The translations under genes were made by a program, and so were the position numbers. From positions 1 through 15,825 of the forward strand of contig JBIKWN010000058.1 in the NCBI GenBank assembly GCA_044356295.1: a DNA stretch of 15,825 nt. The letters are read 5' to 3'. Origin of the DNA: Bdellovibrionota bacterium (lineage in GTDB: Bacteria; Bdellovibrionota_C; UBA2361; JBIKWN01). Under the pieces are notes generated by a model that saw only the letters and a list, made by a program, of their open reading frames with translations, searched no databases and was not told where the DNA came from. Each line of letters opens with the position of its first letter. The stretch's first letter is position 1. Positions 1 through 11,228 of this stretch are shown piece after piece.

Positions 1-789
1 CTGTTCCATGATTTACTCAAGAGTATACCGACACCATCAAAAGAAATTTCTTTTGCTTCTTCGGTCGTTTCTCCAGAAATTGTTTCGACTTTTCCAAAAG
101 AACCACAGACTTCCTTACAACGGCCCTCTAAGAAGTTCTTTATATTGAGTGCTCTTTTTTTGTTGTTAGGAATTTTTGCATCATGGTTCTTTTTTGTGCT
201 TCCTGAACAAGGTGATTTTTCTGATTCTTTTTCAGAAACAAGTATGACGTCACTTGCCAATGTTTTAGAGCCCGAGCGAGACGACGTCTCAAATCTTGAT
301 GCATTAATGTACAATGTTCAAGAAGATGAGCAACGATCAATAAGTACGCCTGTGCCTCAGATTGTAGCAGCAGAGAAATTACAAGTTCCAACTGTAGTCC
401 CAGCTCTCCCAAAAACACGTGCAACAATTGATACATCTGGCCCAGTTGAGCCACGTAAAGTTGAGGATTTATTTAATAGTAAGAATGCTTCCCGATATGA
501 AGGTGATGCGCCGCGGGAAATTCGAGAAAGACAACCCGACCCTGAGCCACTTTCCAGACGAGATCCACCGTCTCGTCCTGGTCGGTTCGAAACTGGAATT
601 CGGTATGAAATTATGATTAATACGAGCGTTTTCGATCGACCATCATTTACAGCTAAAGAAGTTGAAGAGCTGTATGTTGGTGATAAGGTTAGAGTTGAAG
701 CTCGATTGGGAAGATGGTTAAAGGTGCGTTCTCGAAACGGAGAGCCTGGATATATTATGTCCCAGGATGCTCAGAAGCTTTTTGATTGA
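1..789 (+). CDS. 5'-truncated membrane-anchored protein with C-terminal bacterial SH3 (SH3b-like) domain
   Basis: Frame 1 is open from base 1 (LFHDLLKSIPTPSKEISF...KKFFILSALFLLLGIFASWFFFVLP), so the TTG at 145 is internal. A hydrophobic TM segment follows KK, then a Pro/Glu/Arg-rich linker. The C-terminus SVFDRPSFTAKEVEELYVGDKVRVEARLGRWLKVRSRNGEPGYI fits the SH3b pattern (W-x-K-V...G..GYI). Stop TGA at 787-789. Confidence 0.75.
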   Translation: MFHDLLKSIPTPSKEISFASSVVSPEIVSTFPKEPQTSLQRPSKKFFILSALFLLLGIFASWFFFVLPEQGDFSDSFSETSMTSLANVLEPERDDVSNLDALMYNVQEDEQRSISTPVPQIVAAEKLQVPTVVPALPKTRATIDTSGPVEPRKVEDLFNSKNASRYEGDAPREIRERQPDPEPLSRRDPPSRPGRFETGIRYEIMINTSVFDRPSFTAKEVEELYVGDKVRVEARLGRWLKVRSRNGEPGYIMSQDAQKLFD

Positions 790-800
790 GAACTTAAGTG

Positions 801-876
801 CCGTGATCCTGAGCGTGAGCCTGAGCGTAAACTTAAATTATTTGGGTCACGCTCAGGCCTACGCTCAAGGTCACGG
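801..876. repeat. REP-like palindrome with two arms of five hexamers (CGTGAG-like) and a 14-nt loop; related to the MITE cargo at 8187-8263
   Basis: Left arm cgtgat-cctgag-cgtgag-cctgag-cgtaaa (802-831), loop cttaaattatttgg (832-845), right arm gtcacg-ctcagg-cctacg-ctcaag-gtcacg (846-875). It lies between convergent stop codons (789 and 978) and may also act as a terminator or mRNA stabiliser. Confidence 0.85.
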
Positions 877-977
877 GGTAGAACAGTAAAATTCTTAAGA
901 AGCCATAACTTCTAAAATTAAGCGTTTTCATTGTGTTAAAAATATTTTTATCACCGTAAATCAAACTAATACTCTCT

Positions 978-7036: not shown

Positions 7037-8026
7037 TTAGTCGTTTGGAAGTAATGAATCGTATTTTATTTTAGATAAAAACTCTTGAGGAAGTTGGCTA
7101 ATTTTGGCTAATCCAATTTTCTTTAACTCATCTTCATCTGGATTTGATTCTCTGAGTTGTCTTGCTGAAAGTAGGTTCCATTCAGGTTCAACTGACCAAG
7201 AATGAGAAACTTCCCCCAGTTTGAGAAGTAAAGCCAATTTAGTGAAGCATAAATCAGTCACATCAAGTGATAAAGCATATACGCCATTTTCATTTTTAGT
7301 TCTTGCTGGATTGACAACAAGAACTTCTTTAATATTTTCTCCTAACGATCCTAAGGGTTTCCAATTAAGATAAGCATGCGCATGATTTAATATCAAACCA
7401 CCTTCTGAGTCTTCAATGTAATCAATGTCTATAAGAATGCTCCCAAAAAAACAAAATTGCTCTTTTACTGCAGGGTATAATAGCTTTTGTGTTTCGTTGT
7501 CAGGATTTTTGGAATTGTTTAGTACAAGATTTACTATATGACGAGGTTGTTTTAAAACACTTTCAAGTCTAAGTAATGTATTTTCAAAAACTTCAGCACT
7601 TATTTTTGATTTTGAGTCTATCAAGTCAAATGATTCCGAGAACTGATGCACGAGTTCTAAGTTTTCATCGATGACTTCACAATATGTCTCAACTAGTTCC
7701 CTCTCTAAAAACTGACGTAATGCAGATATATATGCGGTTTGAAAAGCTTCCTCTGCAGGTAACTCTTCTGCAATAGAGTAGATATTAAACTCCACTTCCC
7801 ATATATTAATGAAGTCAGTTGATTCTTTAATCTCTTCAAGATTATAACCAAATTCGAGTGCGATAGATTCAAGTGCTTCTTGATCTGTTGTATTGAGAGC
7901 TTGCCTTGGATCATTTAGTAATCCTATCACTAAATGAATAAGATTTACGTTGTGCTGATAACCAGCACCCAAATTACTTTCTCTTAAAAATCTTACATGT
8001 TCAGGATCTTGAGCAAAACCGTTCAT
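7037..8026 (-). CDS. Hypothetical acidic protein (329 aa)
   Basis: Long uninterrupted ORF filling the gap; Glu/Leu-rich; no signal peptide or recognised motif. Confidence 0.75.
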   Translation of the reverse strand: MNGFAQDPEHVRFLRESNLGAGYQHNVNLIHLVIGLLNDPRQALNTTDQEALESIALEFGYNLEEIKESTDFINIWEVEFNIYSIAEELPAEEAFQTAYISALRQFLERELVETYCEVIDENLELVHQFSESFDLIDSKSKISAEVFENTLLRLESVLKQPRHIVNLVLNNSKNPDNETQKLLYPAVKEQFCFFGSILIDIDYIEDSEGGLILNHAHAYLNWKPLGSLGENIKEVLVVNPARTKNENGVYALSLDVTDLCFTKLALLLKLGEVSHSWSVEPEWNLLSARQLRESNPDEDELKKIGLAKISQLPQEFLSKIKYDSLLPND

Positions 8027-8159
8027 GTGGGTGATATGCCTTTATTGGAGATAAATATACTTAAAAAAGTATCCATGAGGGATGTTCAAGGTTTCTAAAA
8101 AACAACCATGTAATCAGTTGAATATATGGAGTTTTATTTTTTACCGCAGGGGGACGCAG

Positions 8160-8291
8160 CAATGTCATTAAGTTAAGAACTTACGGCCGTGACCTTGAGC
8201 GTGTGCGTGAGCGTGACCCAAACAATTTAATGTCACGCTCACGCCTACGGTCATGGTCAACGGGTAGGAATGCCTTAACTTAATGACATTG
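8160..8291. mobile_element. 132-bp MITE, IS4-family-like, with 18-bp perfect TIRs and 11-bp target-site duplication
   Basis: TIR-L CAATGTCATTAAGTTAAG (8160-8177) is the exact reverse complement of TIR-R CTTAACTTAATGACATTG (8274-8291). The direct repeat GGGGGACGCAG flanks it at 8149-8159 and 8292-8302. TIR length, the AATG...AGTTAAG pattern and the TSD length resemble IS4-subgroup elements as recalled. No transposase is encoded. Confidence 0.9.
8187..8263. repeat. Hexamer-periodic palindrome carried inside the MITE
   Basis: Left arm cgtgac-cttgag-cgtgtg-cgtgag-cgtgac (8188-8217), loop ccaaacaatttaat (8218-8231), right arm gtcacg-ctcacg-cctacg-gtcatg-gtcaacg (8232-8262). Confidence 0.85.
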
Positions 8292-8441
8292 GGGGGACGC
8301 AGAGGTCCGCTGAGGGGAATATGCATATATTTCAATGTTGTTAGATTGTTTTGATTTCCTCTGCGATACCCTGCGCGCCTCTGCGGTAAAAAATACAAAG
8401 GCTCAAACTATCAACTCATTTAAAGCATAAATAAATAAACC

Positions 8442-9626
8442 TCAATCAAAATGAAATTCAATCTTACCTGCAGCGCGTCTTGCTTTCTCTCTAGCCGCAT
8501 CGAGTGTGGTATCTTTTGCAAGTATTACACCGAGCCGCCTAGAACCATCGATTGAAGGCTTACCAAATAATCGAAGTTGAGTATCGGGCTCAGCAAGTGC
8601 CTGACTAATCCCACTGAAAGAAATATTTTCACTTTTGCCTTTTGCTAACAGAGCAACAGAAGCAGAAGGACCAGTCTGTGTTATTAGTGGGATGGGTAGG
8701 CCAAGAATCGCCCGAACGTGCAGGGCAAACTCGGAAAGATCTTGAGAGATAAGCGTTACCAGTCCTGTATCATGCGGACGAGGTGAAACTTCACTAAAAT
8801 AAATTTTATCTTGCTTCACAAATAACTCGACACCAAAAATTCCATACCCCCCGAGCGCGTCCGTTATTTTTTTAGCACAATCTTTAGAGGCAGCTAACGC
8901 TTTATCTGACATTGGATGGGGTTGCCATGATTCACGGTAGTCACCATCAATTTGAATATGACCAATTGGATCGCAAAACGAGGTGCCGCCTGCATGCCTC
9001 ACTGTTAAAAGAGTAATTTCGTAATCAAAGTCGATAAAACCTTCAACGATTACTTTTCCTTCTCCGGTTCTGCCTCCTGTTTGCGCGTAATCCCAAGCTT
9101 TGTCGATATCGCCTGAGGTTTTAATAACACTTTGACCTTTTCCAGATGAACTCATTACTGGTTTAACAACACAAGGCGTTCCAATTTCTTCAACCGCTGC
9201 CAGGAATTCTTGTTTAGTTACAGCAAATCGGAAAGGCGATGTTGGTAGTCCTAACTCTTCTGCTGCGAGTTTACGAATTCCTTCACGATTCATTGTTAGA
9301 TTGGCAGCTCTTGCTGTCGGAATAACGGTTTTTCCATTTTTCTCGAGAGCTATAAGTGTTTCAGTGTTAATCGCTTCAATTTCTGGAACGATAAAGTCTG
9401 GATTTTCTTTTTCGATTAGATTTTTTAATGCGTCAGGGTCGAGCATCGAGATTGTGTGACTTCTGTGTGCTACCTGCATCGCAGGTGCGTTGTCATATCT
9501 GTCGACTGCAATTACCTCAACACCGAGTCTTTGAAATTCAATTGCGACTTCTTTCCCAAGCTCTCCTGAGCCTAAGAGGAGTGCCTTAGTTGATGAAGGG
9601 GTGAGGGGGGTTCCTATTTTTGTCAT
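8442..9626 (-). CDS. purT: Formate-dependent phosphoribosylglycinamide formyltransferase
   Basis: [75 protein letters not shown]...RRLGV. Confidence 0.97.
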
Positions 9627-9749: not shown

Positions 9750-11228
9750 ATGAAGGTTAAAAATATATTCAAATTTTTTTTGACTATAGCAATTGTTATA
9801 TCTTCTTCTGATGCTATAGCGCTGACGATTGAGACTTTCGAAGCTAATACAAGATTAATATGTGACGAGGGAGATGTTCCTAAGTATACAATGACTACTT
9901 CTGCTGGTTCGTTAGGTGGAAAACAAACTTTGAGATGTGAAAAAACTACCCCAGGTCTTGGGTCTGAAGTCACAGCCAGATCTACAGGTTTTCAACTCTA
10001 CAGGCACAGTCAAGAAAGTGGATCTGCAGGAGTTACAGAAATTGAGTGGGATGGTGATTCTATTTCTGCCCCTCCTGTTAACTATGATGGTTTAGCTTCT
10101 ATCGATCTCATCCAAGATAGTGGCGACGCTATAAGAATTAACAATATGGTGTATGACTGTGCTGGTGTATCACCAAACGCAGTAATGTCTATTACTATTT
10201 ATGATGCACGTGATCCAAATGGTGGAAGAAGAATCTCTTTTAACTACCAACTGCCATGTTGGACAACGTTTAATCCAGGAAATCCTCAACATGTAAAAGA
10301 TCAATTGTATGGTTATAATGGTTCCTATAATCCCGATACAGGAATCTCACTAGTTTTCCCTTTTGCTGATTTTACCCAGGCTAATCCATCAACTCCTGCT
10401 GATATTAGAAAAGTTGGAGCGGTTAATATTACAATCACAGGTGTTTCCAATGATGCAGATATAAGTTTTGGAACAATAGGAACCAACGGTTCATGTTCTA
10501 ACGTCCCAGATCCTGTTACAGGAGTAGCCTGTACTCCGACTCCAACCAGTACACCTACAAACACACCTACTAGCACTCCAACCAATACACCAACTGTAAC
10601 CCCAACGAACACGCCAACGCTGACTCCTACGTCTACCCCAACTCCAACACCTACGAATACCCCAACGAACACACCAACGTTGACGCCAACCCCAACAAGT
10701 ACTCCAACTGCTACTTTGACAAATACACCAACGGTAACTCCTACAAGTACTGTAACGAATACCCCTGAGGCAGTTTTAAGTTGTACAAGAGTTGCACCAA
10801 CAGCTGAAATGAAAGCGATTGGTTCATCACTTTTAAAATCCACATCAACAATCAGCCGCATAATCAGAGCAGATGCATCGCGTGCAAAATCCGCTAAATC
10901 TTGTAATGGTAAAGTAAATCCAGCGAGACTCCTTTCGATCGTTCGTCAAACTGAGAAAAATATCCGTGATGAAATAAACTCTGAGATTTTGAAATCTATT
11001 GAAGTGTGTGGAGTAGATTGTGTTAAGGTCAGTTTCTTGACTGAGGTTTCTGTAGTTAGGAAGATGATCAAAAACTACGGAGCTGTCGCAGCTTCTAATG
11101 CAAAAAAAGTTGTTGCCTGTGCTAAATCCATTCGCGGCAACGGTTCAGGACCTAAGACGTCTTCACTGAGTTCGATAACCAGCGCCCTAAATCGACCGGT
11201 TAATGTTACCTGTAACATCTGTAAATAA
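9750..11228 (+). CDS. Secreted/surface protein: signal peptide, beta-rich N-domain, 78-aa Pro/Thr linker, basic Cys-rich C-terminal domain
   Basis: AAGGA upstream of the ATG; signal peptide MKVKNIFKFFLTIAIVISSSDAIA; 6 Cys before the linker and 7 after it, ending TCNICK. Confidence 0.85.
   Translation: MKVKNIFKFFLTIAIVISSSDAIALTIETFEANTRLICDEGDVPKYTMTTSAGSLGGKQTLRCEKTTPGLGSEVTARSTGFQLYRHSQESGSAGVTEIEWDGDSISAPPVNYDGLASIDLIQDSGDAIRINNMVYDCAGVSPNAVMSITIYDARDPNGGRRISFNYQLPCWTTFNPGNPQHVKDQLYGYNGSYNPDTGISLVFPFADFTQANPSTPADIRKVGAVNITITGVSNDADISFGTIGTNGSCSNVPDPVTGVACTPTPTSTPTNTPTSTPTNTPTVTPTNTPTLTPTSTPTPTPTNTPTNTPTLTPTPTSTPTATLTNTPTVTPTSTVTNTPEAVLSCTRVAPTAEMKAIGSSLLKSTSTISRIIRADASRAKSAKSCNGKVNPARLLSIVRQTEKNIRDEINSEILKSIEVCGVDCVKVSFLTEVSVVRKMIKNYGAVAASNAKKVVACAKSIRGNGSGPKTSSLSSITSALNRPVNVTCNICK
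10533..10766 (+). repeat. Coding low-complexity T-P-T-(S/N/V/L) repeat linker
   Basis: TPTPTSTPTNTPTSTPTNTPTVTPTNTPTLTP...TNTP. Synonymous codons are diversified, so the repeat is conserved at the protein level. Confidence 0.92.

What the first reader, a model, noticed from the sequence alone, without database searches (positions are those of the whole stretch)
8149..8302. Nested mobile system: IS4-like MITE carrying one REP-like palindrome inserted into a different REP-like palindrome
Seen: perfect 18-bp TIRs (8160-8177 / 8274-8291) and a perfect 11-bp target duplication GGGGGACGCAG (8149-8159 / 8292-8302) define a 132-bp non-autonomous element. The duplicated target is one CGCAG unit of an outer palindrome. 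Nearly all of the interior is a second, unrelated hexamer-periodic palindrome that also occurs at 801-876. Established: IS4-family elements have TIRs of about this length and 10-13-bp TSDs, and some IS elements target REP sequences. Inference: a trans-acting DDE transposase uses one repeat family as a safe intergenic landing pad and spreads a second repeat family as cargo. That would be a dispersal route for REP-like palindromes independent of RAYT/HUH enzymes. The perfect TIR and TSD suggest a recent insertion.
Basis: partly seen in the sequence, partly recalled or inferred. Interest (0 to 1): 0.82.

Follow-up and report, generated by a model that had tools for sequence, protein, structure and literature searches.

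The report
IS4 mini-transposon carrying host hairpin repeat
This 132-base gene-less mini-transposon has the same ends as a known jumping gene (IS1675), about twenty relatives in this genome and a host hairpin repeat as its filling; identical ends wrap many unrelated hairpins in other bacteria, which likely lets such repeats hitch-hike, but here it lands on loosely GC-rich spots rather than on one dedicated repeat.

Summary
It is a type II MITE with 23 two-ended copies in the genome. Its TIR is identical to that of IS1675 and of full-length IS4-family elements (YREK motif) in other phyla. No matching transposase is in this assembly, and no empty allele was seen in contigs of five runs.
The inner palindrome is not a RAYT REP: it is the arm pair of a four-helix-bundle gene cassette and exists without TIRs; 32 of its 75 loci keep a TIR. 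The outer palindrome is a GxxExxY-cassette arm pair. The 801-876 copy is most likely a decayed MITE.
The 'landing pad' claim fails as stated: 2 of 33 sites are in the outer family, 10 of 15 rebuilt sites are in no multicopy repeat, and targets follow a symmetric GC-rich pattern, with hints of family preference.
Elsewhere the same TIR bounds 40 short elements with 31 unrelated interiors, 28 hairpin-forming, so capture looks recurrent. Precedents: QMITE2 (MITE holding a REP), ISRm22 (REP-targeting IS4). This scan reported the family in this genome and similar nesting in other genomes before.

The parts
8160..8291 (.). 132-bp type II MITE (interior type A), no ORF
   Evidence: 23 two-ended copies in the genome
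8160..8177 (+). left TIR, identical to the IS1675 ends
8274..8291 (-). right TIR, perfect complement of the left
   Evidence: I18
8149..8159 (+). target duplication, left copy (11 bp), one unit of the outer left arm
8292..8302 (+). target duplication, right copy
8187..8262 (.). cargo: hexamer-periodic inverted arm pair; same arms flank a four-helix-bundle gene (TIGR02436) at G000:C60 and its deleted remnant at C124
8137..8159 (+). left arm of the outer CGCAG palindrome (continues 8303-8305), interrupted by the MITE; arm family of GxxExxY cassettes
   Evidence: MITE-free paralogue at G000:C74, 82% over 123 bp
8358..8393 (-). right arm of the outer palindrome
786..900 (.). second copy of the inner palindrome (arms 801-828 / 849-876) with MITE spacers but no TIR within 4 mismatches: likely decayed MITE
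8442..9626 (-). purT, upstream neighbour; its stop is 150 bp from the MITE
7037..8026 (-). 329-aa ORF without NCBIfam match, downstream neighbour; its start is 134 bp from the MITE

Best explanation
The element is a gene-less IS4-family MITE whose IS1675-type ends enclose a host palindromic repeat, likely captured from the arms of a four-helix-bundle cassette, and it was likely moved in trans by an IS1675-like transposase that is missing from this assembly. Shown: ends, duplications, copy family, identity of both palindrome families with cassette arms, symmetric GC-rich target pattern. Inferred: the transposase cuts at the TIRs and makes a 10-11-bp staggered cut at sites that are GC-rich at both edges and AT-rich in the middle; in a 36%-GC intergenic background such sites are often in or beside palindromic repeats, and purifying selection removes insertions in genes, so nesting in the outer repeat is a frequent by-product with at most a mild family preference. 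Inferred: shells of this clade have picked up local palindromes many times independently, and a shell that amplifies multiplies its cargo (here about 40% of the cargo's loci). How capture happens is untested; aborted gap repair after excision, or deletion of a shell that held an arm-gene-arm cassette, are the likeliest routes.
For: 75 loci of the inner palindrome: 20 with both TIRs at <=4 mismatches, 12 with one, 43 with none; 23 two-ended after inspection, 5 with perfect and 6 with one-mismatch 10-11-bp duplications. TIR exact at both ends of IS1675 and bounding 9 elements of 1438-1697 bp, 7 of 8 long ORFs with the YREK motif, NF033592 above cut-off. End signature and duplication length fit subgroup IS4 in Table 1 of PMC2266710. 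TIR-free copies: 18 of 26 other copies aligned have their own loop and no TIR (by eye); arms flank the four-helix gene at C60 and a remnant at C124 ending in the same 12 residues. Outer arms flank GxxExxY remnants in two congeners. Targets: GC 0.60 vs 0.37, GC peaks at -11..-9 and -4..-1 with a trough at -6, 28 of 33 non-coding against 9.4% of the genome. Recurrent capture: congener G001 has the same TIR around a different palindrome; 40 short elements elsewhere fall in 31 unrelated clusters, 28 with fold z <= -3, none resembling full-length IS interiors beyond one 20-bp hit; cargo also found TIR-free in 3 of 4 genomes tested (7, 15 and 14 of 30 rows; 1 of 30 in the fourth).
Against: No transposase with this TIR in the assembly; the only relic belongs to a sister clade with a TIR 3 bases different. 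No empty orthologous allele in contigs, so mobility rests on duplications and dispersed copies. 9 of 23 two-ended copies have no recognisable duplication. Two families are individually enriched even under the GC-weighted null (outer 2 vs 0.11, p 0.005; GTAG repeat 3 vs 0.22, p 0.0015), G001 adds two ends in the outer family, and relatives in other genomes are strict repeat targeters, so real family preference is not excluded. The fold control was not clean: 3 of 9 joined IS inner ends also reached z <= -3. Direction of capture is inferred from loop diversity, not from a tree.
Confidence: 0.72

Rival explanations
1. Dedicated repeat targeting: the transposase recognises the outer CGCAG palindrome, or hairpins in general, as a safe landing pad.
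For: Outer family hit 2 times among 32 events against 0.11 expected and twice more in G001; GTAG repeat hit 3 times. Same-TIR MITEs in Flavobacterium soyae: 17 of 20 at CCC-N3-GGG sites of one repeat; a related IS in G031 mostly at one GTAG-type repeat. ISRm22 is a published IS4 case.
Against: 10 of 15 rebuilt sites match fewer than 2 other places in the genome; 5 of 15 vs 395 of 2500 random intergenic sites (p 0.074) and 110 of 507 GC-rich ones (p 0.21). The two largest palindrome families got 0 hits against 2.6 expected (one insertion at C60 lies in a degenerate arm my pattern missed). Without the window's own copy the outer enrichment is 1 vs 0.11, p 0.10. Empty sites fold no better than GC-rich intergenic DNA (p 0.097). 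Cut positions differ between hits.
Confidence: 0.12
2. Reverse history: the palindrome family arose inside the MITE and TIR-free copies are MITEs that lost their ends (the reading given to QMITE2 in Coxiella).
For: 7 of 26 other copies share the MITE loop or spacers, including 801-876; PMC5896051 reads TIR-less REP copies as truncated MITEs.
Against: 18 of 26 have private loops, no spacers and no TIR; the arms flank a four-helix gene and its deletion remnant; hexamer-periodic arms flank four-helix genes in relatives lacking this TIR.
Confidence: 0.08
3. The shell first captured a whole arm-gene-arm cassette (a mobile insertion cassette) and the MITE is its internal deletion; cargo did not come from a free hairpin.
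For: Free hairpins arise this way in this genome (C124). In G031 a related TIR lies about 190 bp past a four-helix gene and its arm (L359). An earlier unchecked note describes IS4-shelled four-helix cassettes (e1-9865580).
Against: No two-ended shell with the gene was found in G000 or in 22 TIR loci of G031; many cargos elsewhere are GTAG-type or other repeats.
Confidence: 0.08

Closest known systems
IS1675 (Lactococcus; annotated 'IS4-like element IS1675 family transposase', record NZ_AP018500.1) and IS4 family subgroup IS4 (De Palmenaer 2008, PMC2266710)
   Same: 18-bp TIR identical at both ends; end signature and 10-13-bp duplication range of subgroup IS4 fit.
   Different: No transposase; similarity confined to the TIR (plus a few bases). 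Subgroup assignment of IS1675 itself was not checked in ISfinder (not available).
QMITE2 of Coxiella burnetii (Wachter 2018, PMC5896051; abstract and passages)
   Same: 150-190-bp MITE with 7-11-bp duplications that contains a REP, coexists with TIR-less copies of that REP, and is itself a target for another IS; here a third element also interrupts the cargo.
   Different: QMITE2 holds a GTAG REP and the paper reads the TIR-less copies as truncated MITEs; here the cargo is a four-helix-cassette arm pair that exists independently, and the parent IS clade is identified.
ISRm22 of Sinorhizobium meliloti (Tobes and Pareja 2006, PMC1525189; passages)
   Same: IS4-family element found inside palindromic repeats.
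   Different: ISRm22 is autonomous and 10 of 10 copies sit at one position in one REP; here 2 of 33 sites are in the outer family.
Nezha and Chunjie MITEs (as reviewed in Delihas 2011, PMC3184786; passages)
   Same: 130-235 bp, TIRs shared with an IS, strong folds; for Nezha the parent IS was found only in another species.
   Different: No cargo identified as a separate host repeat family in the passages read; their TIR sequences were not compared.
Paired tandem-unit repeats of Geobacter metallireducens, classes 1-3 (Aklujkar 2009, PMC2700814; passages and supplement legends)
   Same: Inverted pairs of arms built of 7-9-nt units with variable spacing; two transposons noted near class 1.
   Different: Read there as regulator binding sites; different unit sequences; supplements not opened.

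Membership tests
Type II MITE (Minnick 2024, PMC10969869) | <500 bp, TIRs of 4-30 bp, no coding capacity, flanking duplication | tested here: met
   132 bp, 18-bp TIRs, 11-bp duplication
Type II MITE | dispersed multicopy family at unrelated sites | tested here: met
   23 two-ended copies on 20 contigs, 108-141 bp
Type II MITE | similarity to an autonomous IS confined to the TIRs | tested here: met
   TIR exact in IS1675; interior has no hit to 9 full-length interiors
Type II MITE | cognate transposase available in trans | tested here: inconclusive
   none in the 93.6%-complete, 128-contig assembly; a transposase half beside this TIR in order relative G007; sister-clade relic at C113
Type II MITE | filled and empty orthologous sites | tested here: inconclusive
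   no skipping joint in contigs of runs X1-X5 at two loci; only an empty paralogue (C74); no orthologous intergenic match in 40 relatives
IS4 family, subgroup IS4 | end signature -AATR--------WTW---- and 10-13-bp duplication | tested here: met
   Table 1 of PMC2266710 against the TIR; duplications 10-11 bp. Full-length elements elsewhere give 9-10 bp, partly below the range
IS4 family | single-ORF DDE transposase with Y(2)R(3)E(6)K | tested here: met
   met in the TIR-sharing full-length elements, not in the MITE: 7 of 8 long ORFs, IS1675, NF033592
REP-targeting IS, type 1 association (Tobes and Pareja) | all copies at the same position of one REP family | tested here: not met
   2 of 33 sites in the outer family, 3 in a GTAG repeat, 28 in none of five named families
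RAYT-associated REP/REPIN (inner and outer palindromes) | arms flank a Y1 (RAYT) transposase gene | tested here: not met
   no inner or outer arm in the four PF01797 loci; arms flank TIGR02436 and GxxExxY genes instead
RAYT-associated REP/REPIN | mobilised by a HUH enzyme | not testable with these tools
   needs biochemistry

The most novel reading that the evidence does not exclude
One IS4 clade with an 18-bp end conserved across phyla acts as a general vehicle for host palindromes: empty shells repeatedly capture whichever hairpin repeat is local (RAYT REPs, GxxExxY arms, four-helix-cassette arms), a hairpin interior is favoured because it helps the short element transpose or be tolerated, and this gives orphan repeat families with no known transposase a second route that can account for nearly half of their copies in a genome.
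Probability: 0.3. Interest if true: 0.65.

Novelty: new variant of a known kind. Interest (0 to 1): 0.4.

Why it matters
Locally this is ordinary selfish DNA. The wider pattern bears on two open points: how type II MITEs get interiors unrelated to their parent IS, and how palindromic repeat families without a known transposase spread. Because the same 18-bp end bounds a named IS in a food-grade bacterium and an estimated 12,000 stored stretches, both questions become testable with one transposase and swapped interiors. It also warns that repeat counts in such genomes mix two dispersal routes.

Tried and rejected
Cognate transposase in the genome: PF01609 and PF13006 gave 0 matches; tblastn and a profile of 8 TIR-linked transposases gave one weak hit that proved to be a sister-clade relic. 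Empty allele: none in contigs of X1-X4 at the window or X1, X2, X3, X5 at the C107 copy; contigs drop rare variants and X1 may be the source sample. No RNA holder listed. Same TIR-plus-cargo junction or the cargo arm in metagenome and viral collections: 0 exact matches; exact long patterns are insensitive. The window's arm matched both flanks of four-helix genes in only 2 of 29 relative loci at 5 mismatches; others have arms of different sequence. Rfam: one chance-level hit. No promoter-like or terminator-like site at 7950-8500. RAYT link rejected. General hairpin targeting not significant. Literature searches for GxxExxY or four-helix genes with repeats, for IS1675, and for MITEs capturing REPINs found no description of this pattern; PMC3189936 and PMC3733652 passages held nothing on it. 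The library lacks most subscription journals and ISfinder was not available.

Full report
OBSERVATION. All coordinates check: perfect 18-bp TIRs at 8160-8177 and 8274-8291, an exact 11-bp direct repeat at 8149-8159 and 8292-8302, inner arms 8190-8217/8232-8259 and outer arms 8132-8159/8371-8398. The element folds at z = -12.0 (0 of 200 shuffles); a crude chance estimate is negligible. It lies between purT (8442-9626, minus strand) and a co-directional unknown ORF (7037-8026). The host is an uncultured genome of 2.96 Mb, 38.6% GC, 128 contigs, 93.6% complete; the two best runs holding the region are lake-water metagenomes. Earlier notes call it Bdellovibrio-like; I did not check that.

THE FAMILY. 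blastn with the element and its interior at E <= 1e-3 gave 75 loci: 20 with both TIRs at <=4 mismatches, 12 with one, 43 with none. Three of the 12 have a degraded second TIR, giving 23 two-ended copies of 108-141 bp. Their best 9-12-bp flanking duplication is perfect in 5, has one mismatch in 6, two in 2, three in 1 and is unrecognisable in 9. The alignment (read by eye) shows two interior types, A (18 copies, including the window) and B (4), plus one A/B chimera. The window copy differs at 4 of 133 columns from its two closest kin, which are identical to each other. Among 91 genomes of the order, 6 have the TIR at <=1 mismatch: 37 matches here, 3 in one congener, 1-2 in four others, 0 in all reversed controls. 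The amplification is thus lineage-specific.

THE PARENT IS. An exact-match scan of 1 of 64 parts of the genome collection returned 128 stretches (estimate about 12,000 in all). Pairing ends in the loci held gave 9 elements of 1438-1697 bp and 43 of 72-346 bp. Seven of 8 long ORFs carry Y(2)R(3)E(6)K; one scored above the NCBIfam IS4 cut-off; 6 of 9 have perfect 9-10-bp duplications. The end matches the subgroup IS4 signature in Table 1 of PMC2266710. No such transposase is in this assembly or the two congeners; 11 of 91 order genomes have homologues, and G007 has a C-terminal half beside this TIR. The relic at C113:7768-7974 is 52-54% identical to a sister clade whose TIR differs at 3 positions; cross-mobilisation is possible but untested.

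WHAT THE PALINDROMES ARE. Neither flanks the four Y1 transposase loci. The inner arms flank a four-helix-bundle gene at C60 (TIGR02436), and at C124 they enclose a remnant ending in the same 12 residues. Of 26 other copies aligned, 7 share the MITE loop or spacers (801-876 among them, hence a likely decayed MITE) and 19 have private loops, 18 of them with no TIR. So the family exists independently of the shell, most likely as emptied cassettes. In 29 relative loci four-helix genes often have periodic inverted arms, but only 2 matched this arm on both sides. The outer family has 9 arms here, a MITE-free paralogue at C74, and flanks GxxExxY remnants in both congeners; the intact GxxExxY gene here has a related CGCGAAG arm family. 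I had seen these links before reading earlier notes with the same idea; those notes are not independent evidence.

TARGETING. Flanks of 54 ends show GC peaks at -11..-9 and -4..-1 and a trough at -6; duplications average 0.60 GC against 0.37; 28 of 33 sites are outside ORFs of 100 codons or more, which cover 90% of the genome. For the 15 of 23 copies with a usable duplication, 5 rebuilt sites match 2 or more other places, against 395 of 2500 random intergenic sites (p 0.074) and 110 of 507 GC-rich ones (p 0.21). Five named repeat families hold 5 of 33 sites: more than uniform (1.25, p 0.0075) but not more than a null weighted by the GC pattern of the other 28 sites (3.2, p 0.21). Against that, two families are individually enriched: outer 2 vs 0.11 (p 0.005; 1 vs 0.11, p 0.10, without the window's own copy) and a GTAG repeat 3 vs 0.22 (p 0.0015), with five families tested, while the two largest got 0 vs 2.6 (after merging two half-copies into one event). 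G001 has two more ends in the outer family. In other genomes same-TIR or related elements range from strict (17 of 20 at one motif in Flavobacterium soyae; G031) to scattered (Thiosymbion). Verdict: loose sequence preference with possible mild family bias here, not a landing pad.

RECURRENT CAPTURE. G001 has the identical TIR around a CGCGAAG palindrome, 177 bp with a 10-11-bp duplication. Of 40 short elements from other genomes (3 same-locus duplicates of the 43 dropped), interiors form 31 unrelated clusters, 28 fold at z <= -3 with TIRs removed, and only one 20-bp hit links any to a full-length IS interior; the control was imperfect, 3 of 9 joined IS inner ends also reaching z <= -3. In four genomes tested, the top 30 rows held 22, 10, 10 and 12 two-ended and 7, 15, 1 and 14 TIR-free rows (rows include both-strand duplicates and, in the third, many contig edges).

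AGE AND ACTIVITY. Contigs of X1 carry both junctions and X2, another study, the right junction; no contig skips the element. At the C107 copy X1 and X2 carry both junctions and X3, with 3 flank differences, the left one. The insertions look fixed in what was sampled; contigs cannot show rare empty alleles.

MECHANISM. Shown: anatomy, family, parent clade, cassette origin of the arms, target pattern. From established IS4 biology (recalled, in line with PMC2266710): cut-and-paste by a DDE enzyme with a one-turn staggered cut. Inferred: supply in trans by a lost or unassembled IS; capture of a local palindrome once or twice; amplification; decay. Untested: capture route, any benefit of the hairpin, any effect on purT read-through (no consensus promoter or terminator; no Rfam match).

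KNOWN VERSUS NEW. Read as passages: PMC1525189 (IS4-family REP targeting is known), PMC5896051 (a MITE holding a REP and hit by another IS is known), PMC10969869 (type II definition), PMC3184786, PMC3733652, PMC3189936, PMC2700814 (supplements not opened and could bear on the arm families); PMC2266710 abstract, passages and one part of the main text. Ten searches found no account of one IS clade's ends recurring around unrelated host palindromes. This scan has noted the family in this genome and similar nesting with other IS4 subgroups in at least six other genomes. I class it as a new variant of a known kind, interest 0.4.

Noticed in passing
G000 C46:18931, C91:232 and 3331, C94:239, C52:5036, C107:2760: Both ends of another multicopy element interrupt the inner palindrome, in MITE-borne and free copies, at 6 contig ends. 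C46 and C107:2680 are the two halves of one MITE with a 10-bp duplication. The element's ORF starts MPW, which I recall as IS481-like (not tested). A third layer of nesting that looks like true repeat targeting.
   Followed up: partly
G000 C113:7676-7974, C12:22190, C23:29419, C126:2519; L308-L311: A sister IS4 clade with a TIR 3 bases different: full-length in order relatives with 10-11-bp duplications, here a truncated relic and lone ends lying in or carrying the GGTACAAGGTAAC repeat family.
   Followed up: partly
L188-L208 (Flavobacterium soyae): The 9-mers flanking several same-TIR MITE copies are reverse complements of each other rather than direct copies; could reflect insertion into an extruded hairpin or conversion between repeats.
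   Followed up: no
G000 C3:9274 vs C107:1560: Two copies identical over 133 bp, one with a perfect and one with a degenerate duplication; with the C119 chimera this hints at gene conversion among copies.
   Followed up: no
G000 C6:6623: A lone TIR followed by a CGCGAAG palindrome, likely a decayed shell with the cargo type seen in G001.
   Followed up: no
L359, L365, L374 (G031): Related TIRs directly followed by a four-helix gene with arm, or by hexamer palindromes.
   Followed up: partly
G000 C60:4206-4337: An old MITE copy sits in the right arm of the four-helix cassette, the very repeat family it carries; the gene upstream appears frameshifted near its end.
   Followed up: partly
G000 genome: About 67 copies of a repeat that I recall as type I-E CRISPR-like; four Y1 transposase-like genes.
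   Followed up: no
window 10532-10765: 12-bp periodic stretch encoding a Pro-Thr linker in the 492-aa ORF; ordinary.
   Followed up: no
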